Source: Desulfobacteraceae bacterium
GTDB lineage: Bacteria > Desulfobacterota > Desulfobacteria > Desulfobacterales > UBA2174
Reading direction: 5' to 3'
Length of the DNA: 58,776 nucleotides
Assembly: GCA_028700185.1 (NCBI GenBank)
Contig: JAQVTF010000002.1
Span: forward strand, 1 to 58,776
Shown here: piece after piece, positions 11,675-20,920 of the stretch
Layout of the letters: each line of letters starts with the position of its first letter
How positions within the stretch are numbered: the first letter of the stretch is position 1
Made by a program: the position numbers and the translations under genes
Notes under the pieces: model-generated
Database searches by the model: none
Told to the model about the DNA's origin: nothing
What the model saw: only the letters and a program-made list of their open reading frames with translations

Positions 11675-11825
11675 CCTGCCATCTCTAACTTCGGATCAAT
11701 GCCCCCGGTGACGTGATTGACTCGGAACGGTCGCCCTCAAGAAAACAGGGCCGGGAGCATATCGCCCCGGCCCCAATTGGGCTGCCGCCAGGCAGCGGCA
11801 TCTTGACGGATGTCAACCCGCGATT

Positions 11826-13289
11826 TTACAGCAGGCGTCCGCCGCTTTCCGGCCAACGCCGCACCAAGTTGCGGGAAGCGTCGGTGATGGTGATGGTAAT
11901 GCCGTGATCGCCGTCCAGGCGATGCGTTGCGCAGGAAATTCATGGGTCGTAGGCGCGCACCGCCATTTCGATCCGGTTGAGAATCCCCTCGTCCACCTTG
12001 CCGTCATGGATCAACTCCCGGGCCGCCTGGTTGACGCTCATGTTGATGGGCCCGAGGTTGTGGGTAGTCCCCACGATCATGTTGGCATGGCGGATCAATC
12101 CGTTTTCGTCGGTGGTGTAGTCGTGAATCAGGGTGCCCCGCGGCGCCTCGACACAGCCGATGCCGCGGCCGGCTCTCGGTTCCACCTTGGCCCGGACGTT
12201 GGGATTGGTGATTTCCGGGTCTTCCAGGATCTCGATGGCCCGTTCGCAGGCGTAGACCTCCTCGATGAGCCGGGCCCAGTGATAGAGCAAGGTCGCCTGG
12301 GCCGGACGGCCGAAGTGCTGGCGGAAGGCCTCCAGCTCGGCCTGGGCCCGGGGCGTGGAAATGTGGTCGGCCACGTTGATGCGTGCCAACGTGTTGGACC
12401 GGTATACACCCCGGGGTTGGTCCAGATCCAGGGAGAAACCCTCGTCCCAGCACCGCGCATAGGGAAACTTGCCGTAGGAATAGGGCAGCACCTGTTCGCC
12501 GATGTAGTCGGTGTAGTCGTTGGGGGAGAATTCGGTGATGCTGCCGTCCGGCTTCATCAGGCGCAGGTTGCCGTCGTAGAGGTTCAACGCCCCGTCGTCG
12601 TCCACCGTGCCGATGAAACCGGTGTTGATGACGCCGATGGTCGTGATGGCGTCCATGTACTTGGGGAAAATCTCCTTCTTGGCAAAATCCATCGTGAACA
12701 GGGCGAAATCCAGGATCTGGCGCATCCGGTCGAGGATTTCCAGGCGCTGATCCTCGCGCATCGGCTTGGAAAAGCCGCCTGGCACCCCCGCAATGGGATG
12801 GATCGCCTTGTTGGAGAACTGGTCCAAGGTCATCTTGGCCAGGTGACGCATCTTGACCACCCGCTGCGCCAACTCCGGATTGGCCTGAACGATGCCGATG
12901 ATGTTGCGCACCGCGTAATCGGTATCCGGACCGATGACGAAATCGGCCGCCGCCAGGAAAAAGAAATGCAGCAGCTTGTCTTCAGCGTGGGAAATGGTCT
13001 GCATCAACTCGCGCAACTTGCTGCCTGTCGGCGTCGGGGTGACGCCGAAGCAGCCGTCCACGGCCTTGTTGGCGGCCAGATGATGCATCCAGGGACAGAT
13101 GCCGCAGATGCGGCTCACGATGCGCGGCAGTTCTTCGGCGGGTTTGCCTTCCACGAATTTTTCGAACCCGCGCATGGACAGGATGTTGACCCGCGCCTGG
13201 CTCACGTTGCCCGTATCGTCTAGTTCGATACCGATGGAAGCGTGCCCCTCGATGCGGGTGATGGGCTGAATGTTGATAACCCGGGACAT
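11826..13289 (-). CDS. mvhA: Mvh/Vhu-type cytoplasmic [NiFeSe] hydrogenase large subunit. The in-frame TGA at 11940-11942 is read as selenocysteine.
   Basis: N-terminal RIEGH and RICGICP motifs. The ORF track ends at ...VRAYDP + TGA. The same frame continues ISCATH RLDGDHGITITITDASRNLVRRWPESGGRLL to TAA at 11826-11828, restoring the DP[C/U]xxCxxH nickel-ligand motif plus a cleavable tail. Confidence 0.85.
11907..11923 (-). promoter_or_regulatory. candidate bacterial SECIS hairpin for the mvhA UGA
   Basis: The mRNA reads AUCGCC-UGGAC-GGCGAU (6-bp stem, 5-nt loop) and begins 16 nt after UGA. It has the same loop and spacing as the mvhD hairpin. Confidence 0.55.
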
Positions 13290-13293
13290 GGTT

Positions 13294-14235
13294 TTACGAC
13301 TCCTTTCTTTTACCCGCCGGCCGCAACAGGCCGTGGGCGCCGGCGAAACGTAGCAGCGACACGCTCTCGGGCAGGCTTGCTAGATCGATTCCGTTGGAAG
13401 CCAGGGCGTTGAGCATGTCCAGGCGCGGGTTGCCGTTCTGGCGTACCGGCCCGTAGCAGCCCCGGCAGGGAACCCGGGCCGCGATGCACCGCGGCGGTCC
13501 GTCGATCCCGCCGCAGCCGGCCCGGGTGACCGGTCCCATGCACAAGAACCCCTGTTCCAGCAGGCAGCGCATCTCGTCCAGAGGAGCGTCGGGATCGGCG
13601 TACACCGGTGCTTCGAGGAAACGCTTCAGCTTCTTGAGTTGCCCCTTTCCCTCGCGTCGGGTCGGGCAGACGTCGCAGACGCTCTTTCCCGGCAGCACGG
13701 GGGTTTTTCCTTCCACCAACGCCGTCAGGGCGGAAAAGATGTGGTCCGGGTGGGGCGGACAGCCGGGCAGATAGATGTCCACGGCGATCTTCTCGTCCAA
13801 CGCGTAGCAGCGGTCGAGCAGGGGTGGAACGATGTTCATATCCGGATGACGCTCCGGCGCGTCGGTGGTCTCGGTGGTGTAGTAGCGGTGGAGAATCTCT
13901 TCCGGGCTGTAGGCGTTGGACAGGGCTGGAATCCCGCCGTGGGTGGCACAGGTGCCCAGGGCGATGATCGTCCGACAGCGTTTGCGCATCTCCAGGGCCA
14001 CTTCCAGGTGCTCCGCGTTACGAATGCCCCCACTGATCAACCCCACATCGGCCTCGGGAATTGCGAGATGAACACCGTCGCCGAGCTGGCCGAAGTACTT
14101 GTGATCCATCAGGGCCGGGATGTGCACGAAATCGGCCACCTTGAGCACCTCCAGCAGCCGCTCTCCCATGTCCAGGATCGAAATCTCGCAGCCGGCACAG
14201 GAGTTGAGCCATTCACTTGCCACTTTTACCGTCAT
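13294..14235 (-). CDS. mvhG: Mvh-type [NiFe] hydrogenase small subunit (no Tat signal, cytoplasmic)
   Basis: MTVKVASEWLNSCAGCEISILD..., later GTCATHGGIP and multiple Cys clusters. There is no twin-arginine leader. Confidence 0.9.
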   Translation of the reverse strand: MTVKVASEWLNSCAGCEISILDMGERLLEVLKVADFVHIPALMDHKYFGQLGDGVHLAIPEADVGLISGGIRNAEHLEVALEMRKRCRTIIALGTCATHGGIPALSNAYSPEEILHRYYTTETTDAPERHPDMNIVPPLLDRCYALDEKIAVDIYLPGCPPHPDHIFSALTALVEGKTPVLPGKSVCDVCPTRREGKGQLKKLKRFLEAPVYADPDAPLDEMRCLLEQGFLCMGPVTRAGCGGIDGPPRCIAARVPCRGCYGPVRQNGNPRLDMLNALASNGIDLASLPESVSLLRFAGAHGLLRPAGKRKES

Positions 14236-14250
14236 CTCTGATTCCTCCGT

Positions 14251-15369
14251 CTAAATCTTCACCCTCACCGAGGGGGCGCCCAACTCCTGCCGGAAGGCCG
14301 CGGCACTTTCCTTCTTGCGCCGCGACCATTCGTGCACCTTTTCCAGGGCGGCACTGGCGTAGCGGTGATCGTCCTGGTAGCGAAAAGTCTCCAGCGCCCC
14401 TGCACTGCGGGCATCGGAGAACACCGCCCGGCCAAGGGGAGTGCGCATGATGGTGGTGGTCCAACCCTCCCGGGCGCCGATGCCGCCGAAGGCGATATCG
14501 GCGAATTCCGCGGCATAGTCCGGGCAGAAACGGCAGGCGTAGCGGCGGATCGCCGCCAGGTCCGCCAACGGAATCGTTTTGATTTCCCCGTTGTTCAGGT
14601 GGAGCATCAAGGCTTCCTTGATATTGATCTTGCGCACCTGGTCCCAGTCGAAGCCATGGGCCTCGGCCAGCGCTTGGCGCTGTTTTTCTCCAAAAACGAA
14701 GTTGCCCGAACAAAACAGACCGAAGCAGAACTGGATCGCGTCCGAGGGAACCAGCCCTAACGTCTGCATACGGCGCACCGATTTGATCTGACAGGGAGTG
14801 CCCACCAGCGCCACCCGGTGCAGCCCCTTTTTGACCATGGGGTCGAATTCTTCGATGGAAGAATAGGTCATGTACTGGTCGCTGAAGCTTTTCATCCCGT
14901 GGCTGGTGTCGAAAAAAAAGCCGGCCGATTCGAGGATGTCCTCGCGGGTGGTGGCCAGGAAGGGGCGTCGCTGAAACGGCCCCACCTGTTGGGCCACGAT
15001 GGCCCCGTCGATCCGTCCCCGGTCGAAGAGATGCAGCAACAGGGCCGTGACCACACCGCCGTCGGTGGCCCGCTGGCGCACGGTCTCATCCATGGCCCGG
15101 GCCACGGTGGATTCCATGATCCGCCCCATGGGTTCACTCCAGGCGGCCCGCCGTCGGGTCTCTTCCTCCAGTTCGTCCACTTCCGGACAGATGGCATGGC
15201 ACAACCCGCACTCGATGCACTTTTCGATATCCGCATAGCGCGGTTTACCGTCTTCATCCAGTTCCAGCGCCCCGTAGTTGACGGCCGTGCAGAAGGTCAC
15301 GCAGCCTCCGCAGCGGTGGCAGAGCCCTGGTTTCTGGACTTCCTGGATCAGGTCGAAAAAGGTTTTCAT
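14251..15369 (-). CDS. FrhB/FdhB-family flavo-iron-sulfur protein (coenzyme F420 hydrogenase/dehydrogenase beta-like) with an N-terminal 2x[4Fe-4S] ferredoxin
   Basis: CHRCGGCVTFC...CIECGLCHAICP, then DGGVVTALL...VGTPCQIKSVR...CRFCPDYAAEFADIAFGG. Confidence 0.8.
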   Translation of the reverse strand: MKTFFDLIQEVQKPGLCHRCGGCVTFCTAVNYGALELDEDGKPRYADIEKCIECGLCHAICPEVDELEEETRRRAAWSEPMGRIMESTVARAMDETVRQRATDGGVVTALLLHLFDRGRIDGAIVAQQVGPFQRRPFLATTREDILESAGFFFDTSHGMKSFSDQYMTYSSIEEFDPMVKKGLHRVALVGTPCQIKSVRRMQTLGLVPSDAIQFCFGLFCSGNFVFGEKQRQALAEAHGFDWDQVRKINIKEALMLHLNNGEIKTIPLADLAAIRRYACRFCPDYAAEFADIAFGGIGAREGWTTTIMRTPLGRAVFSDARSAGALETFRYQDDHRYASAALEKVHEWSRRKKESAAAFRQELGAPSVRVKI

Positions 15370-15393
15370 GATCGTCTCCTCTCGCCGGCGCCA

Positions 15394-15834
15394 TCAGGCG
15401 GCGCTGTCCACCGGCGCTTCCGGCACCGCCACGGGGTTGGGGCCCAGAGACCGGATCTTCTCGGTAAAACGGGTCACCACCTCGGCAAAGCGCGGGGCTT
15501 CGGCGGAGGATACCCACTCGATGGCGAACCGCTCTGGCTCGATCCCCAAATCCTCGAGCACGATATGAATGGCGGCGGTCCGGTTCAGGGCCTTGGCATT
15601 ACCGTCCAGGTAATGGCATTCACCGAGGTGTCAACCCATGACGATGACACCGTCGGCACCCTTCTGCAGCGCCCCCACCACCAGGTCTGGGTGCACCATC
15701 CCCGAACACATCACCCGCACCGCACGCATGTTGGGCGGGTACTGAAGGCGCGACACGCCGGCCAGGTCGCCGCCGGCATAGGCGCACCAGTTGCACAGAA
15801 AGCCGATGATGACAGGCTCAAAATTGTCGGCCAT
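15394..15834 (-). CDS. mvhD: MvhD-type hydrogenase delta subunit. The in-frame TGA at 15631-15633 is read as selenocysteine.
   Basis: GFLCNWCAYAGGDLAGVSRLQYPPNMRAVRVMCSG...GADGVIVMG + TGA. The same frame continues HLGECHYLDGNAKA...ERFAIEWVSSAEAPRFAE... to TGA at 15394-15396. Cys-type homologs carry G-C-H-x-G-D/E-C-H-Y here. Confidence 0.85.
15597..15615 (-). promoter_or_regulatory. candidate bacterial SECIS hairpin for the mvhD UGA
   Basis: The mRNA reads CAUUACC-UGGAC-GGUAAUG (7-bp stem, 5-nt loop) and begins 15 nt after UGA. Confidence 0.55.
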
Positions 15835-15863
15835 GATGAGATTCCTTTCTAAGAATGGGGAAA

Positions 15864-16352
15864 AATGACTTAAGTGACTAAAAACTGAGTGACTAAAATT
15901 ACGAGTGACTAAAGTGACTAAAAACTGAGTGACTAAAATTACGAGTGACTAAAGTGACTAAAGTGGTGGTGTCGCTGCGCTCCGGTTTTTATATAACTGG
16001 CAGAATTCATTCACTTTAGCTCACTTTAGTCACTTTAGTTCACTTTAGTTCACTTGACACTCTAGATCACTTTGGCTTTTTTAGTGACTAAAATTACGAG
16101 TGCCTAAAGTGGTGGTGTCGCTGCGCTCCGGTTTTTATATAACTGGCAGAATTCATTCACTTTAGCTCACTTTAGTTCACTTTAGTCACTTTAGTTCACT
16201 TGACACTCTAGATCACTTTGGCTTTTTAGTGACTAAAATTACGAGTGACTAAAGTGACTAAAGTGGTGGTGTCGCTGCGCTCCGGTTTTTATATAACTGG
16301 CAGAATTCATTCACTTTAGCTCACTTTAGTCACTTTAGTTCACTTTAGTCAC
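15864..16352. repeat. AT-rich, ORF-free array of about three composite palindromic units (146-154 nt) built from phased GTGACTAAA / TCACTTTAG 9-mers around a roughly 45-nt core
   Basis: The core AAGTGGTGGTGTCGCTGCGCTCCGGTTTTTATATAACTGGCAGAATTCAT occurs at 15961, 16107 and 16261. 15928-16049 is identical to 16228-16349 (122 nt). There is an exact 40-nt tandem duplication at 15881-15920 / 15921-15960. Seven exact GTGACTAAA copies lie in 15874-15962. The array fills the hdrA-mvhD intercistronic gap. Confidence 0.9.
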
Positions 16353-16359
16353 TTTTTTT

Positions 16360-19300
16360 TCATTTCACCAACGCCGCCTCCACCTGGGCCTCGAGCTGGT
16401 CCAGGGTGAATCCGTGTACCAGGACGCCTCCCTTGGGACAGGTGGCCTCGCAGAGTCCGCATCCCTTGCACAGGGCCGGATCGGTCTTGATGCGTTTGTG
16501 CACGGTGCCGTTTTCGGCCTGGAATTCTTCCAGGGAGATGGCCCGGTACGGGCACACATCCACGCACAGGGCACAGCCGTCGCATTTGTCGGTGACGAAA
16601 CTCTTGATGGCATCGAGCTGCATTTCGTCCCGGTCCAGCAGAATCGCGGCACGGGCTGCCGCCGCCTGGGCCTGGGCGATACTCTCGTCCACCGGCTTGG
16701 GGTAGTTGCACAGCCCCGCCACGAACAGGCCGTCCACGGACATGTCCACCGGTCGCAGCTTGGGATGGGCCTCGTTGAGAAACCCGTCCTCGTTCTGGCC
16801 GCACTTGTACAGCTCCACCAGGGACCGATTCGGGTAGGGTTCAATGGCCGACGCCAGCACGAGGTAGTCGACGTCAAACTCGAGGGGCATCTGGAGAATC
16901 GGGTCGAAGGCCGTTACCGTCACCCCGTCGCTGCCCGGGGCGACCCCGGGCTTGCGATCCACATCGTAGCGGATGAAAATGACCCCCAGGGCCCGGGCCT
17001 GCTGGTAGAGCAGCTCACGCTTGCCGTAGGTACGAATGTCCCGGTACATCACGTAGACCGGCATCTCCGGCTGGAGGGTCTTGAGGCGGATGGCGCTTTT
17101 CATGGTGTGGGTGCAGCAGATGCGGCTGCAGTAGGGCCGCTTCGGCTCGCGGGAGCCCACACACTGGATGAAGGCCACCCCGGCGGCCTGCCGGATCTCG
17201 TCCGCATGCCCCTCGACGAAAGCGTCGAACTCCAGGTGGGTCATCACCCGGTCGCTCTCCCCGTAGCCGTACGCCTCGGGCACCGATTCCCGGGCGCCCA
17301 CCGCCACCACGGCAGCCCCGTAGCTCACGGCACGGGTTTCTCCGTCGACTTCGATGCGACTGACAAAATTGCCCACCGATCCCACCGCGGTCAAGAGTCG
17401 GGCGTTCTTCATCACCTGGACCCCCGGGTGGGCTTCCACCTGACCGATCATGGCTTCAAGCATGGGCCGAATCGGTTCCCCCGTCTCGGTTTCGCCCAAA
17501 CGCCAGGCGTTGCCCCCGAGGCGCTGGCCTTTTTCCAGCAGCACGGTGGGAATATCCCGGTCAGCCAGGGTCAGGGCCGCCGTCATGCCGGCGATGCCAC
17601 CGCCGATGACCAGGGCCTTGCGGGTCACCGGTACCCGCAGCCGGCCCAAGGGCGCCATGCGGGACGCCTTGGCCACGGCCATGCGCACCTGGACCTTGGC
17701 CTTTTCGGTGGCCTGTTCGGGCATTTTCTGGTGCACCCAGGAATTCTGGTTGCGGATGTTGGCCATCTCGATGAGGTACGGGTTGAGGCCGGCCTCCTGA
17801 AGCGTCTCCTGGAACAAGGGTTCATGGGTGCGCGGGGTACAGGCGGCCACCACAATCCGATTGAGACCGTGTTCGGCGATCTTCTTGGCGATGAGATCCT
17901 GGGTGTCGGCCGAACAGGTGAACAGGTTGTTGTCCACAAACACCACGTTGGGCAAAGTGGCGGCATAGGCGGCCACCGCCTTCACGTCCACCACGCCGGC
18001 GATGTTGATGCCGCAGGAACAGACAAAAACACCGATGCGCGGGGTCTCTCCGGCCACGTCCCGTTCGTCCGGATAGGTCTTCTCGTGTGTCAGGGCCCCC
18101 CGGGCGGGCAGCATGAGGTGAGCCGCCTCGGCGGCGGCGGTGGAGGCTTCGGCCACCGAGCGAGGGATCGCCTTGGGCCCCTGGAAGGCCCCGGTGACAA
18201 AAACCCCGGGACGGGTGCTGCACACCGGATGGAAATAATCGGTCTTGGCGAAACCGTAGGCGTCGAGCTCGATGCCGAAGGCCGCCGCCAACTGCCGGGC
18301 GTCCGCCGGCGCCTCCAACCCCACGGACAGGACCGTCATGTCGAAGGTTTCCACCTGCGTCTGCCCATCTTCGGTGGTGTACCGCAGGCTGACACCGTGC
18401 CCGTCGGGGCCCGGGTCGATGGAGTGGGGCCGAGCCCGGATAAACTGCACCCCCTTGGCCCGAGCGTCTTCGTAGAAGCGTTCGAATTCTTTGCCCGGAC
18501 TGCGGATGTCCATGTAAAAAATGCTCTGTTGGACCTCGTCGCCGGTGAGGTGCTCGGCGGTGACCAGGGACTGCTTGATGGCATACATGCAGCAAACGCT
18601 GGAACAGTAAGCATTGGTGCAACGGTTGGTGCTGCGGGAGCCCACGCACTGGATCCAGGCGATACGGCGGGGTTCCCGGTTGTCCGAGGGGCGCTTGAGG
18701 TGCCCCATGCAGGGCCCTCCGGCCGAGAGCAGTCGTTCGTACTCCAGACTGGTAACCACATCGGGGATCTTCTTGTAGCCGTAGAAATCATACGGTGACG
18801 GGTCGAACGGCTGGAAACCGGGGGCCAGAATCACCGCCCCCACTTGGAGATCGAAAAACTTTTCCTCGTCGTCGAAACGGATGGCGCCGGTGGGACAGAA
18901 CTTCTCGCAGGCCCGGCATTTGCCCCGGGTCAGATAGATGCAGTGCTCGGGATCGATGGCATACTTGAGCGGCACCGACTGACCGTACTTGATGTAGGCC
19001 GCCTTGCGCTTGTTGAGCCCCATGTTGAAGGCGTCATCGACCCGTTTGGGACATTTTTCCGCGCACAGCCCGCAGGCGATGCACTTTTCCATGTCGATGT
19101 AACGGGGGTGTTGCTTGACGGTGACGGTGAAGTTGCCCGCCTCGCCCTTGACATCGACCACTTCCGAAAGGGTAAGCAAATTGACGTTGAGATGCCGGCC
19201 GACCTCGACCAGTTTCGGAGAGATGATTCACATGGCGCAATCGTTGGTGGGATAAGTCTTGTCCAACTGGGCCATGACGCCGCCGATGCCGGCGGTCTTT

Positions 19301-19407
19301 TCCACCATGTGAACGTAATAGCCGGACTCGGCCAGGTCGAGGGTCGCCTGGATGGCGGCGATGCCCCCGCCGACCACCATTGCCGCTCCAATGGGAGATT
19401 GAGACAT
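16360..19407 (-). CDS. hdrA: tandem (double-module) HdrA-family flavo-iron-sulfur protein. The in-frame TGA at 19228-19230 is read as selenocysteine.
   Basis: ATG at 19407 with an AAGAGG RBS. The sequence reads [20 protein letters not shown]...[12 protein letters not shown] + TGA + [12 protein letters not shown]..., joining the 16360-19179 ORF in frame. Cys homologs carry FPTxDC(S/A)xCI at this point. It has ferredoxin CxxCxxCxxxCP motifs and a second FAD module ([15 protein letters not shown]). Confidence 0.85.
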
Positions 19408-20196
19408 GGAAACCTCTTTTTTGTTTTCAGAAAAAGTTAAAGGGGTTGCTGCCTGACCGGGCACCGTGTGGTGCCCGGACGCCATCGCGGCCCGCCAAGC
19501 GTCCTCTTCGATCCCCGCATCCTGGCAAAACCGCTCCAGTTCCTCCTCCTGGATCAGATACTTCTTGCCGATGGTGGGCCGGGCGGGCAATTTGCCGGTT
19601 TTAATCCAGTTGGTGACGGTGTTGCGGTGGACCCCCAATTGGGCGGCGAGAGTGCCGACCCGAAACATAAGGGCGTTTCCACCCCCGCCGCCGGCTACGG
19701 TACCAGACGGGGGCACAAGGATATCCATGATCCACTGACACATGGGCCTCACGGCAGCCTGCACCGAAGCGGAAAGGCCCGGATGGACCTCGGATGGGAT
19801 ATCGGCCGGATTGACCACCAGAATGCGCACGTCGATGTCGGTGTGCTGTCGCAGCTCCTTGAGCATATTGGTGGTGGGAAACTGGTGCAGCGAATAATCG
19901 ACGATCTTGGCCGGCTGGATTTCGTCGAGCCCGATTTCGCGGATTTCGCCGGGGGAAGCGTCCTTGAGGGCCATGGCGTCCACGATGATGATCTGCCGCG
20001 GATATTTTCGCGACAGGAGCATATCGAAAAGAATGTCGCGCACCGCGGTGCCCACATCCAGGTAGGCCACGTCGGACGGTAGTCGATACTCGGCTTCAAG
20101 CAGTCGAATCACTTCCGCCCCGAACCCGTCGTCACCGAACAGAGGGTTGCCGCAGCCAAACACCAGCCGGGGTTTTTCGTAAATGCGCTTGAGCAT
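19408..20196 (-). CDS. hydrogenase maturation endopeptidase (HycI/HybD/FrhD-like) fused to a C-terminal excisionase/MerR-type HTH. No stop codon precedes hdrA.
   Basis: [16 protein letters not shown] and SLHQF protease motifs, a GGGGG linker, then [47 protein letters not shown]. The frame runs uninterrupted into hdrA, and the first stop is the TGA at 19228. The end given here is simply the base before the hdrA ATG. Confidence 0.7.
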
Positions 20197-20557
20197 GATC
20201 CAGGCCCCCAAAGTCTTGGATTAAAAAACAATAACAATTACCGATTTGGGCAATATAGTCAATAGAGATTGTGCAAAAGATGCCATTTTTAAAATCGTCG
20301 GCCTACACCAATTTCTTTTTTCCGGCAAGAAAAATTTTAATCAACACAGATTCCCCACCCGGTTGCGGGGGGTGAAAAATGCCAAGGAACGAAGGTGCAG
20401 GTTTCCTCCTTCGGCGCGACGCTGAGGAAAAGTTTCCGAACTTACGACAAAAGGGGGGGGGGACCACAAAAACAGATATCGGCGCTACAGCCGGCCAGCA
20501 AGCCACCGGCGAGAGTTGGAAATTTCCAATAATGCCCTTCAACCGGCCGGGGACGCC

Positions 20558-20920
20558 TCAGGCGGGTCCGCCATCCCTTCGCGCCGCCGCCAAGGCCCGG
20601 GCGAGCCGGTCGCTGATCTGGCCGGTCAGCGCCGCTACTTCCTGGAGATGAGCGGCCACTTCGGTTCGTCCCTGGCGCTGGGCTTCGGTTACCCACTGCT
20701 GGTAGTCGCAAAGATGGTCTTCGTTATGCCGATGCCAGTGTTCCAGGCGCTTGACCAGTTTTTCGGCAAAGGGCATCGCCGCCGGCGCATGGGAGGAATG
20801 AGGATGGTCGTGCCCGTGGCCGTGGCCGTGGCCGTGCTCATGGTGAGGATGGGCATGATCGTCGTCGTGAGGATGGGGGTGGTGGTGATGGGCGTGCCCT
20901 TGCTCGTGGGAATCGTGCAT
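20558..20920 (-). CDS. histidine-rich small protein (possible Ni/metal-binding), unknown family
   Basis: Strong RBS (GGAGGA, 6 nt) then ATG. The N-terminus is MHDSHEQGHAHHHHPHPHDDDHAHPHHEHGHGHGHGHDHPHSSH, followed by a helical-looking C-terminal half containing HWHRHNEDHLC. Confidence 0.75.
   Translation of the reverse strand: MHDSHEQGHAHHHHPHPHDDDHAHPHHEHGHGHGHGHDHPHSSHAPAAMPFAEKLVKRLEHWHRHNEDHLCDYQQWVTEAQRQGRTEVAAHLQEVAALTGQISDRLARALAAARRDGGPA

What the first reader, a model, noticed from the sequence alone, without database searches (positions are those of the whole stretch)
11826..20196. The Mvh-HdrA module has no HdrBC; it carries a tandem HdrA and an FrhB-like subunit instead
The operon order is protease-HTH, double-module HdrA (1015 aa), MvhD, FrhB/FdhB-like flavo-FeS protein, MvhG, MvhA. 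No hdrB or hdrC (CCG-domain heterodisulfide-reducing subunits) occurs in the cluster or anywhere in the window. In methanogens MvhADG-HdrABC is the paradigm flavin-based electron-bifurcating complex. Here the HdrBC output module appears to be replaced by an FrhB-like protein, which in archaea binds F420/FAD. The second electron acceptor of this putative bifurcating hydrogenase is therefore unknown. All three redox-centre-bearing subunits that can carry Sec do so, and no Cys-type paralogs are visible locally.
Basis: inference. Interest (0 to 1): 0.6.

Follow-up and report, generated by a model that had tools for sequence, protein, structure and literature searches.

The report
Selenium hydrogenase-HdrA operon with FrhB-like subunit
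A sulfate-reducing bacterium carries a widely conserved operon for a cytoplasmic selenium-containing hydrogenase wired to an electron-splitting HdrA flavoprotein and an extra FrhB-like flavoprotein; the usual HdrBC partner is missing here, but it is optional in relatives rather than replaced, and the enzyme's second electron acceptor is still unknown.

Summary
On the minus strand of 11826-20196 lie a protease, an HTH, a fused tandem HdrA (Sec), MvhD (Sec), an FrhB-like protein, MvhG and MvhA (Sec). No CCG (HdrB/HdrD) domain occurs anywhere on this contig.

The arrangement is not peculiar to this genome. The same gene order occurs in more than 50 species-level Desulfobacterota genomes.
- About one third of them carry a Sec- or Cys-type HdrD-like CCG gene between mvhD and the frhB-like gene.
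- The two forms are interleaved on the FrhB tree, so the CCG subunit is an accessory that has been gained and lost repeatedly.
- The FrhB-like protein is therefore not its replacement.

This genome encodes hdrA-hdrC-hdrB, two HdrD-like paralogs and one DsrC elsewhere.

The FrhB-like protein always follows mvhD. It also sits in HdrA2-MvhD-MetVF clusters that have no hydrogenase, so it belongs to the Hdr unit.

F420 synthesis genes were not found here, nor was CofE found in five relatives. F420 is therefore not its substrate.

The "double" HdrA is an asymmetric pseudo-dimer.

An Mvh-HdrA cluster was already drawn for Desulfobacterium autotrophicum in 2009. This is a new variant of a known kind. 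The acceptor remains open: an NAD(P)-like carrier, or DsrC through a CCG protein encoded elsewhere. Other notes of this scan on other genomes also describe FrhB-like genes in Hdr clusters.

The parts
19408..20196 (-). Hydrogenase maturation protease domain (HycI/FrhD type, about 19723-20115) followed by an excisionase-type HTH_17 domain (about 19528-19659). The frame runs on into hdrA without a stop codon.
   Evidence: Pfam HycI 5.7e-16 and HTH_17 3.2e-10. NCBIfam TIGR00072 8.8e-36 and TIGR01764 1.8e-9. The frame is open to the hdrA Sec codon. The HTH is in frame and open with hdrA in 37 of 39 relatives. The protease is fused only here and in L013.
16360..19407 (-). Fused tandem HdrA, 1015 aa counted from the internal ATG, which has its own AAGGAGG ribosome-binding site. 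Module A (aa 9-450) has the FAD domain and the inserted 2x[4Fe-4S] ferredoxin domain; its Sec60 (TGA 19228-19230) aligns with Cys197 of the Methanothermococcus HdrA structure 5ODC. [quoted passage not shown] Both modules keep the CVGSR...C..CC cluster motif.
   Evidence: Three-stretch alignment to 8RVU, 8RVV and 5ODC HdrA at E 1e-182. Pfam. NCBIfam HdrA2 1e-282, below the curated cut-off. The motifs are read directly from the translation.
15835..16359 (.). AT-rich array with no ORF: three tandem copies of a unit of about 150 nt, built from CTAAAGTGA repeats and their inverted complement. It is a dispersed repeat of this genome, inserted between hdrA and mvhD.
   Evidence: Sequence. At least 47 copies of 100 nt or more lie on 24 contigs, and one copy lies at the same site in the closest relative L013. 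Depth rises about 100-fold and Logan contigs break there.
15394..15834 (-). MvhD, the [2Fe-2S] connector subunit, 146 aa, with Sec68 at TGA 15631-15633.
   Evidence: Pfam FlpD 1.3e-51. NCBIfam VhuD 9.7e-38. A SECIS-like hairpin starts 15 nt after the UGA.
14251..15369 (-). FrhB-like iron-sulfur flavoprotein, 372 aa. It has an N-terminal 2x[4Fe-4S] ferredoxin domain and an F420-reductase-type domain with a third [4Fe-4S] cluster and an FAD site. It is a single-copy gene in this genome.
   Evidence: Pfam FrhB_FdhB_C 1.1e-36 and FrhB_FdhB_N 8.1e-19. Best solved relatives are 8RJA_E at 1.9e-45 and 8RIU_B at 4.6e-38. Twelve Cys and the DGG motif are invariant in 65 orthologs. No paralog was found by tblastn.
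13294..14235 (-). MvhG, the Vhu/Mvh-type [NiFe] hydrogenase small subunit, 313 aa.
   Evidence: Pfam Oxidored_q6 8.5e-32. NCBIfam VhuG 6.1e-65 against FrhG 2e-18.
11826..13289 (-). MvhA, the [NiFeSe] large subunit, 487 aa. Sec450 (TGA 11940-11942) lies in the C-terminal DP-U-x-x-C-x-x-H motif, followed by a 31-aa tail that the maturation protease would remove.
   Evidence: Translation. PDB matches to Mvh/Vhu large subunits at 1e-109 to 1e-118, against FrhA at 5e-35. NCBIfam VhuA 2.3e-134 and VhuU 9.3e-11.
11746..11775 (-). Intrinsic terminator-like hairpin (11 pairs, 8 G-C, T-run), 50 nt after the mvhA stop codon.

Best explanation
This is a conserved Desulfobacterota operon for a soluble, selenium-dependent, Mvh-type [NiFeSe] hydrogenase. 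The hydrogenase is coupled through MvhD to a fused, asymmetric HdrA pseudo-dimer, with an FrhB-like 3x[4Fe-4S]/FAD protein as a constant additional subunit.

Most likely mechanism, inferred by homology with solved Mvh-Hdr, Fdh-Hdr and Elp-Hdr complexes:
1. H2 is oxidised at MvhA.
2. Electrons pass through the MvhG clusters and the MvhD [2Fe-2S] cluster to the single C-terminal ferredoxin domain of HdrA (module B), and from there to a bifurcating FAD.
3. The low-potential electron leaves through the single inserted ferredoxin domain (module A) to ferredoxin.
4. The high-potential electron leaves through the cluster beside the FAD that feeds HdrC in methanogens. The motif for this cluster is present in both modules.

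The FrhB-like protein belongs to the Hdr unit, not to the hydrogenase. Its N-terminal two-cluster domain most likely plays the relay role of HdrC. Its FAD exchanges a hydride with a soluble two-electron carrier. That carrier cannot be F420 in this organism. NAD(P)+ is the most plausible candidate, but this is an inference with no direct support.

The CCG disulfide-reducing subunit (HdrD-like) is a second, optional exit. About a third of orthologous operons have it in cis. Here it is either dispensed with or supplied by paralogs encoded elsewhere, with DsrC as its likely substrate. The reaction may run in either direction.
For: - Gene identities, tight spacing and the terminator.
- Gene order is conserved in more than 50 species genomes.
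- HdrA domain complementarity and Sec60 = Cys197.
- FrhB-like always lies directly after mvhD, mvhD-hdrD or mvhD-metV-metF. It occurs with HdrA2-MvhD-MetVF and no hydrogenase in L051 and L074, and with HdrB-HdrA2 in L043.
- In L037 and L044 the protease gene separates frhB from mvhGA. In L053 a second HdrA2-MvhD-MvhG-MvhA unit lacks FrhB. FrhB is therefore not needed to link MvhG to MvhD.
- MvhG is Vhu-type, not FrhG-type.
- The nearest solved relatives are plug-in exit modules with the same ferredoxin-plus-reductase architecture (PMC11493965).
- Twelve Cys and the FAD motif are invariant.
- No CofE, CofH or CofD was found in this 94.8%-complete genome. CofE was also not found in 5 relatives, including a complete 9.6-Mb chromosome.
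- Forms with and without hdrD are interleaved on the FrhB tree, with at least 5 changes forced.
- The organism has DsrA and one DsrC.
- tRNA-Sec and SECIS-like hairpins are present.
Against: - No biochemical or expression data exist for this operon type in the papers I could search.
- No FrhB-family member is known to use NAD(P), and the protein has no recognisable NAD-binding motif.
- Docking of FrhB-like onto HdrA is inferred from gene neighbourhoods only. No complex model could be made, and no FrhB-HdrA or FrhB-MvhD fusion was found.
- The repeat array between hdrA and mvhD is not bridged by independent contigs, and co-transcription across it is untested.
- SECIS hairpin energies are not better than those of shuffled sequence.
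Confidence: 0.5

Rival explanations
1. This is a classical Mvh-Hdr with its CCG subunit supplied in trans. One of the HdrD-like paralogs (C64, C264) or the HdrBC pair on C47 binds the HdrA of this operon, and the enzyme bifurcates H2 electrons to ferredoxin and the DsrC disulfide or trisulfide. The FrhB-like protein is then only a side entry or exit, or a redox buffer.
For: - Two HdrD-like paralogs are 71% and 66% identical to an operonic copy.
- Orthologs of the C64 type are themselves operonic in L067 and L075. Operonic copies come from several paralog clades, so the partners look interchangeable.
- The HdrD-like protein scores best against HmcF, TmcB and DsrK, which are DsrC-interacting families, though below their cut-offs.
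- DsrC is present.
- DsrC is the acceptor usually proposed for bacterial Mvh/Hdr (PMC5947290, PMC5947623).
Against: - The C64 copy sits beside its own fused hdrA-mvhD gene, and the C47 hdrCB pair sits beside its own tandem hdrA.
- Two thirds of orthologous operons lack the gene. The closest relative's genome shows only the C64-type copy.
- This reading does not explain why FrhB-like is strictly conserved, including its FAD motif.
Confidence: 0.3
2. There are two separate enzymes. MvhD-FrhB-MvhG-MvhA forms an Frh-like, non-bifurcating hydrogenase that reduces a soluble carrier at the FrhB flavin. It is transcribed separately from the HTH-HdrA gene, with the repeat array acting as the boundary.
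For: - A 525-bp repeat array separates hdrA from mvhD.
- In L029 and L032 the protease-mvhD-frhB-mvhGA unit lies 5 kb away from hdrA-hdrD.
- The Sfum_2221-24 cytoplasmic hydrogenase of Syntrophobacter fumaroxidans is called 'Frh' in PMC5947623; that it is the homolog of this operon was not checked.
Against: - MvhD has no known role other than connecting to HdrA.
- hdrA-mvhD adjacency is conserved in more than 45 loci, with gaps of 40-260 bp.
- The repeat is specific to this lineage, and no terminator-like site was found in it.
- The large and small subunits are Mvh/Vhu-type, not Frh-type.
- FrhB-like also occurs with HdrA2 and without any hydrogenase.
Confidence: 0.12
3. The FrhB-like subunit does use F420, or Fo, taken up from neighbouring methanogens. 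The enzyme is then an H2:F420/ferredoxin system like the archaeal ones.
For: - Its closest characterised relatives all react with F420.
- Near-identical DNA occurs in landfill, digester, wastewater and oil-field metagenomes, which are habitats rich in methanogens.
Against: - No F420 synthesis genes were found here. CofE was not found in five relatives either.
- I know of no F420 uptake system.
- The operon is widespread in marine sulfate reducers.
Confidence: 0.04

Closest known systems
MvhADG-HdrABC of Methanothermococcus (PDB 5ODC and related entries)
   Same: It has an Mvh-type large and small subunit, the MvhD connector, and all four HdrA domain types with the FAD. Cys197 of its HdrA aligns with the Sec here. 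The logic of H2-driven flavin-based bifurcation to ferredoxin is shared.
   Different: Here there is no HdrB or HdrC in the operon. HdrA is a single fused asymmetric pseudo-dimer instead of a homodimer. An FrhB-like subunit and an N-terminal HTH are added. The host is a sulfate reducer with no CoM-S-S-CoB.
Selenoprotein MvhA2DG-HdrA1 cluster of Desulfobacterium autotrophicum HRM2 (Strittmatter et al. 2009, PMC2702500)
   Same: It is a bacterial, Desulfobacterales, Sec-containing cytoplasmic Mvh hydrogenase clustered with Sec-HdrA and MvhD. It was proposed as an MvhADG-HdrA bifurcating complex. That paper's figure legend also lists 'formate dehydrogenase subunit B' genes at hdrA loci that are not followed by fdhA.
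   Different: I could not read that locus itself, so orthology of its 'fdhB' to the FrhB-like gene, and the presence of hdrD4 in it, are not verified. The role of the FrhB-like gene was not discussed there.
ElpABC-HdrABC (PDB 8RVU, 8RVY; PMC12350162) and FdhAB-MvhD-HdrABC (PDB 7BKB)
   Same: An FrhB-family FeS flavoprotein is part of an MvhD-HdrA assembly and gives the complex a hydride-exchange site for a soluble carrier.
   Different: In those complexes the carrier is F420 and the FrhB-type subunit is the donor arm in place of the hydrogenase, with HdrBC present. Here it coexists with the hydrogenase, no F420 synthesis genes were found, and HdrBC is missing in cis. Sequence similarity to ElpB and FdhB is weak (E 2.5e-11 and 8.8e-7).
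FwdI and CODH zeta subunits of Ca. Ethanoperedens thermophilum (PDB 8RJA, 8RIU; PMC11493965)
   Same: These are the closest solved relatives of the FrhB-like protein (E 1.9e-45 and 4.6e-38, nearly full length). They have the same architecture: an N-terminal 2x[4Fe-4S] ferredoxin domain and a reductase domain with [4Fe-4S] and FAD. They act as plug-in electron-exit modules; FwdI replaces a polyferredoxin subunit.
   Different: They are archaeal, reduce F420, and are attached to CODH or formylmethanofuran dehydrogenase rather than to an HdrA/Mvh system.
MetFV-HdrABC-MvhD of Moorella thermoacetica, and the fused HdrA3/HdrA4 of ANME archaea (PMC9012536)
   Same: They have a fused tandem HdrA in which the N-terminal FeS domain and the Cys197 ligand are present in complementary halves. 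Desulfobacterota relatives L051 and L074 place an ortholog of this FrhB-like protein in exactly such an HdrA2-MvhD-MetV-MetF cluster.
   Different: The order of the halves is reversed here: the Cys197/Sec-bearing half comes first and the half with the N-terminal domain second. The Moorella gene set listed in PMC6085437 (MetF, MetV, MvhD, HdrA, HdrB, HdrC) includes no FrhB-like gene.

Membership tests
MvhADG-HdrABC bifurcating hydrogenase/heterodisulfide reductase | Group 3c (Mvh/Vhu-type) [NiFe] large and small subunits | tested here: met
   MvhA matches Mvh/Vhu chains at E 1e-109 to 1e-118, against FrhA at 5e-35. VhuA scores 2.3e-134 and VhuG 6.1e-65, both below the archaeal equivalog cut-offs.
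MvhADG-HdrABC bifurcating hydrogenase/heterodisulfide reductase | MvhD connector encoded with HdrA | tested here: met
   PF02662 scores 1.3e-51. The gene is adjacent to hdrA here and in more than 45 relatives.
MvhADG-HdrABC bifurcating hydrogenase/heterodisulfide reductase | HdrA with the FAD domain, N-terminal FeS domain, inserted ferredoxin domain and C-terminal ferredoxin domain | tested here: met
   All four domain types are present once each, distributed over two fused FAD modules. Sec60 aligns with Cys197.
MvhADG-HdrABC bifurcating hydrogenase/heterodisulfide reductase | HdrB/HdrC (CCG domain) subunits in the complex | tested here: not met
   There is no PF02754 match on contig C288, against 15 matches elsewhere in the genome. 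Whether a protein encoded in trans joins the complex is not testable with these tools.
MvhADG-HdrABC bifurcating hydrogenase/heterodisulfide reductase | H2-dependent coupled reduction of ferredoxin and a disulfide | not testable with these tools
   This needs an enzyme assay.
FrhB/FdhB family (F420-reactive FeS flavoprotein subunits) | FrhB_FdhB_N and FrhB_FdhB_C domains above the Pfam cut-offs | tested here: met
   The scores are 68.0 and 126.4 bits against cut-offs of 22 and 23.3.
FrhB/FdhB family (F420-reactive FeS flavoprotein subunits) | Conserved [4Fe-4S] ligands and flavin-site motif | tested here: met
   C193, C220, C279, C282 and D103-G104-G105 are invariant in 65 orthologs. They align with 8RJA_E and 8RIU_B.
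FrhB/FdhB family (F420-reactive FeS flavoprotein subunits) | F420 available as substrate in the organism | tested here: not met
   CofE, CofH and CofD gave no match in this 94.8%-complete genome. CofE was not found in five relatives, and the CofH-like hits there are below the cut-off.
F420-reducing hydrogenase FrhABG (group 3a) | FrhA-type large subunit and FrhG-type small subunit | tested here: not met
   FrhA scores 4.8e-52 against VhuA at 2.3e-134. FrhG scores 2e-18 against VhuG at 6.1e-65. PDB matches to FrhA are at 5e-35.
Bacterial selenoproteins | In-frame UGA at a conserved Cys position, a SECIS hairpin downstream, and tRNA-Sec in the genome | tested here: met
   The UGAs align with Cys197 of HdrA and lie in the DP-U-x-x-C-x-x-H motif of MvhA. 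The MvhD UGA lies at U68; its alignment to a Cys was not checked here. Hairpins start 15-18 nt after each UGA, although their folding energy is not better than that of shuffles. tRNA-Sec lies on C107. selA and selB were not searched.
Fused asymmetric tandem HdrA (Moorella and ANME HdrA3/4 type) | Complementary presence of the N-terminal FeS domain and the Cys197 ligand in the two halves | tested here: met
   Half A has Sec60 (= Cys197) and no N-terminal domain. Half B has the N-terminal domain and no Cys197 motif. The order is the reverse of that described in PMC9012536.

The most novel reading that the evidence does not exclude
In Desulfobacterota with no F420 synthesis genes, HTH-HdrA2, MvhD and the FrhB-like protein form a modular bifurcating core. 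The FrhB-like flavoprotein takes the place that HdrBC has in methanogens and exchanges hydride with a non-F420 carrier such as NAD(P)+. The window's enzyme would then be a [NiFeSe] H2:ferredoxin/NAD(P)+ bifurcating hydrogenase built on an HdrA scaffold that needs no disulfide substrate. That would be a third architecture for this reaction, beside the HydABC and NiFe-HydABCSL types.
Probability: 0.25. Interest if true: 0.75.

Novelty: new variant of a known kind. Interest (0 to 1): 0.45.

Why it matters
Cytoplasmic Mvh/Hdr-type hydrogenases are annotated in many sulfate reducers and syntrophs, yet their function is called unclear in the literature (PMC6491731). DsrC is only a guess as their acceptor.

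This work shows three things:
- The conserved core is HdrA2-MvhD-FrhB-like.
- The CCG subunit is optional.
- F420 is not made by the genomes checked.

The question is thereby narrowed to one testable subunit. The work also names cultured carriers in which it can be tested: Desulfosarcina variabilis, Desulfamplus magnetovallimortis and Desulfothermus okinawensis.

Tried and rejected
- **Expression data.** No RNA holder was listed for the stretch, so co-transcription could not be tested.
- **The repeat array.** Logan contigs break inside it, so the hdrA-mvhD junction is supported only by the assembly and by synteny.
- **Fused forms of FrhB-like.** I searched longer homologs for fusions with MvhD, HdrA or MvhG that would show the docking partner. 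Only fusions with histidine-kinase domains appeared.
- **A sigma-54 promoter.** A candidate near 20270-20285 (TGGCAT...TTGCA) was rejected because the GG-to-GC spacing is two bases short (read).
- **Monophyly of operonic HdrD-like genes.** I tested this to argue for simple repeated loss. It was rejected: operonic copies fall in at least four paralog clades. Gain, loss and exchange all remain possible.
- **The C64 HdrD-like gene as a relocated operon copy.** Rejected. Orthologs at 74-92% identity exist in genomes with and without the operonic gene.
- **Papers not available.** The Pereira et al. 2011 comparative paper was not held in the library. I did not attempt to fetch the Appel et al. 2021 review. 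Prior descriptions of the FrhB-like gene there cannot be excluded.
- **Complex modelling.** No multimer modelling tool was available.
- **Single-chain fold.** I did not fold the FrhB-like protein, because the sequence match to solved structures already covers almost its full length.

Full report
**What is there.**
Translating the minus strand with TGA read as Sec gives a continuous set of genes between 20196 and 11826. Pfam, NCBIfam and PDB sequence searches identify them as follows.

| Gene product | Coordinates | Notes |
|---|---|---|
| HycI/FrhD-type maturation protease + excisionase-type HTH | 19408-20196 | runs into hdrA with no stop |
| Tandem HdrA | 16360-19407 | 1015 aa, Sec at 19228-19230 |
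| MvhD | 15394-15834 | Sec at 15631-15633 |
| FrhB-like protein | 14251-15369 | 372 aa, ferredoxin domain + FrhB_N + FrhB_C |
| MvhG | 13294-14235 | Vhu-type small subunit |
| MvhA | 11826-13289 | Sec at 11940-11942 |

- MvhA and MvhG are clearly Mvh/Vhu-type and not Frh-type. MvhA matches Mvh/Vhu chains at E 1e-109 to 1e-118, against 5e-35 for FrhA. VhuG scores 6e-65 against 2e-18 for FrhG.
- The gaps mvhD-frhB, frhB-mvhG and mvhG-mvhA are 24, 15 and 4 nt.
- A strong terminator-like hairpin follows mvhA.
- The flanking genes are convergent or divergent and unrelated: a formyltransferase gene on one side, and on the other an ORF without Pfam hits and a sigma-54 activator.
- SECIS-like hairpins start 15-18 nt after each of the three UGAs, and the genome has a tRNA-Sec.

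**No CCG gene in the window.**
The window is the whole of contig C288 of a 3.29-Mb, 94.8%-complete assembly. A whole-genome scan with the CCG domain model gave 15 matches on ten other contigs and none on C288. Unitig-level contigs from landfill, sediment, wastewater and oil-field metagenomes of four different studies each cover 13000-15912 in a single piece with at most 5 differences. The direct mvhD-frhB-mvhG junction is therefore not an assembly artefact.

**How common it is.**
A scan of one genome per species found 78 loci encoding relatives of the FrhB-like protein, almost all labelled Desulfobacterota. The taxa include:
- Desulfobacterales, including Desulfosarcina variabilis and Desulfamplus magnetovallimortis;
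- Desulfobaccales and Syntrophobacterales;
- Desulfothermus.

Mapping the window's proteins onto these loci shows the order (protease)-HTH-HdrA2-MvhD-FrhB-MvhG-MvhA in more than 50 of them. In an even sample of 400 genomes of the phylum, 28 carried an ortholog, spread over about 20 of 256 genera. The protein family has more than 1600 clusters at 90% identity in public data.

**The CCG subunit is optional, not replaced.**
- In 17 scored loci, plus two damaged ones, a gene of about 1.3 kb lies between mvhD and frhB. It encodes a protein of about 439 aa with an HdrC-like two-cluster domain fused to a CCG domain, that is, HdrD-like. It often carries its own Sec.
- Its best family scores are against HmcF, TmcB and DsrK, which are DsrC-interacting proteins, though below their cut-offs.
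- Thirty-six loci, the window among them, lack the gene.
- On a maximum-likelihood tree of the FrhB-like protein the two forms are interleaved. Well-supported branches force at least 5 changes. The window and its closest relative L013 (both without the gene) are sister to L014 (with it). Desulfatitalea has both forms.
- A tree of the HdrD-like family shows that the operonic copies are not one clade. They fall among several paralog groups. Each genome holds 2-9 such paralogs.
- This genome has two. One is a Sec-type on C64, next to a fused hdrA-mvhD gene. The other is a Cys-type on C264, next to a YeeE-like sulfur transporter gene.
- The genome also has a canonical tandem-hdrA-hdrC-hdrB cluster on C47.
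- The FrhB-like protein is thus a constant subunit that coexists with CCG subunits in many relatives. The word 'replaced' does not fit.

**Which unit the FrhB-like protein belongs to.**
- It always follows mvhD directly, or follows mvhD-hdrD.
- In L051 and L074 an ortholog (58-62% identical) closes an HdrA2-MvhD-MetV-MetF cluster that has no hydrogenase. In L043 it follows HdrB-HdrA2.
- In L037 and L044 the protease gene lies between frhB and mvhG.
- In L053 a unit ending in MvhD-HdrD-FrhB (the contig begins at mvhD) is followed by a second protease-HdrA2-MvhD-MvhG-MvhA unit without FrhB.
- The hydrogenase can therefore be wired to MvhD without FrhB, and FrhB travels with HdrA2-MvhD.
- Its nearest solved relatives are the FwdI and CODH-zeta subunits of Ca. 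Ethanoperedens (8RJA_E at 1.9e-45, 8RIU_B at 4.6e-38). These have the same architecture of ferredoxin domain plus reductase domain and act as plug-in exits to a soluble carrier (PMC11493965).
- Twelve cysteines, enough for three [4Fe-4S] clusters, and the DGG flavin motif are invariant in 65 orthologs.

**F420 is not the substrate.**
Models for CofE, CofH and CofD found nothing in this genome, while the archaeal control genomes did match. CofE was also not found in five relatives that carry the operon, including a complete 9.6-Mb chromosome. The CofH-like hits there are below the curated cut-off and come in adjacent pairs, which looks like menaquinone (Mqn) genes.

**The 'double' HdrA.**
Alignment to solved HdrA chains gives three stretches.
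- Residues 9-380 match the FAD domain with the inserted ferredoxin domain. Sec60 falls on Cys197 of 5ODC.
- Residues 454-626 match the N-terminal FeS domain followed by the start of a second FAD domain.

The second half has no Cys197 motif and no inserted domain. The first half has no N-terminal or C-terminal domain. This is the complementary pseudo-heterodimer described for ANME HdrA3/4 and Moorella HdrA (PMC9012536), with the halves in the opposite order. Both halves keep the cluster motif that lies next to the FAD and feeds HdrC in methanogens (read). This leaves room for two different exit partners.

**Mechanism.**
[quoted passage not shown] The step to the FrhB-like protein, and what its flavin reduces, are inference. 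NAD(P)+ fits the energetics, because the mean of the ferredoxin and NAD potentials is close to that of H2. It has no direct support, and no family member is known to use it. The main rival is DsrC reduction through a CCG protein encoded in trans. The organism has DsrA and a single DsrC, the latter just downstream of another HdrA-MvhD-Flx-like cluster.

**Comparison with the literature.**
- A Sec-containing MvhA2DG hydrogenase clustered with Sec-HdrA1 was reported for Desulfobacterium autotrophicum in 2009 and proposed to bifurcate. 'Formate dehydrogenase subunit B' genes were drawn at hdrA loci (PMC2702500).
- Bacterial Mvh/Hdr with DsrC as presumed acceptor is a common annotation (PMC5947290), and its function is called unclear (PMC6491731).
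- In the papers I could search I found no discussion of the FrhB-like subunit in bacteria that lack F420 synthesis genes, nor of the optional HdrD gene.
- Two key sources (Pereira 2011, Appel 2021) were not read.

**Verdict.**
The feature is real, conserved and correctly named. It is a bacterial variant of a known system that has been seen before at the level of gene maps.

Noticed in passing
window 19408-19700, and loci L013-L086: The excisionase-type HTH lies in the same open frame as hdrA, with no stop before the HdrA Sec codon, in 37 of 39 relatives that have it, even though linker lengths vary. The family protein therefore looks like an HTH-HdrA fusion. The protease is a separate ORF in 24 loci and absent in 12. 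It is fused in frame only in the window and in L013, where it gives a possible 1283-aa protease-HTH-HdrA product. I found no paper describing an HdrA with a DNA-binding domain.
   Followed up: partly
window 15835-16359: Three tandem copies of a palindromic AT-rich unit of about 150 nt fill the hdrA-mvhD gap. At least 47 copies of 100 nt or more lie on 24 contigs of this genome. One copy lies at the same site in the closest relative L013, and none in the other relatives. It looks like a lineage-specific REP- or MITE-like element.
   Followed up: partly
window 20558-20920 (minus strand): A 120-aa protein whose first 45 residues are about half histidine, with its own sigma-70-like promoter, lies just upstream of the operon. 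It has no Pfam or NCBIfam match. A homolog lies upstream of the operon in L013. Others lie 3-4 kb from the stand-alone FrhB-like paralogs in L076-L078 and L080-L082. It may be a nickel-binding protein.
   Followed up: partly
proteins P0005-P0034: All the longer homologs of the FrhB-like protein that were found (38-44% identity, 650-760 aa) are fusions of the full ferredoxin-FrhB module to HisKA/HATPase_c histidine-kinase domains. Two carry source names from Anaerolineae and Cloacimonadota. An FrhB-type flavoprotein appears to be used as a redox sensor.
   Followed up: no
G000 contigs C290 (L093), C267 (L094, L137) and C47 (L135): The same genome has parallel tandem-HdrA-MvhD units with other partners. 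On C290 the partners are an FeS protein and a Sec formate dehydrogenase. On C267 they are two FeS proteins and an NAD/FAD-binding protein (Flx-like), followed by the only dsrC. On C47 they are hdrC-hdrB, followed by a sensor kinase and a sigma-54 regulator.
   Followed up: partly
L051 7359-10122; L074 8262-10092: Orthologs of the FrhB-like protein close HdrA2-MvhD-MetV-MetF (methylene-tetrahydrofolate reductase) clusters in a Desulfatiglandaceae and a Desulfococcaceae genome. This is a Moorella-type MetFV-Hdr cluster with an added FrhB-like subunit.
   Followed up: partly
L095-L134 (genomes G001-G010): The HdrD-like CCG selenoprotein family is present in 2-9 copies per Desulfobacterales genome, in both Sec and Cys forms. 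The copies inside the hydrogenase operon belong to several different paralog clades.
   Followed up: partly
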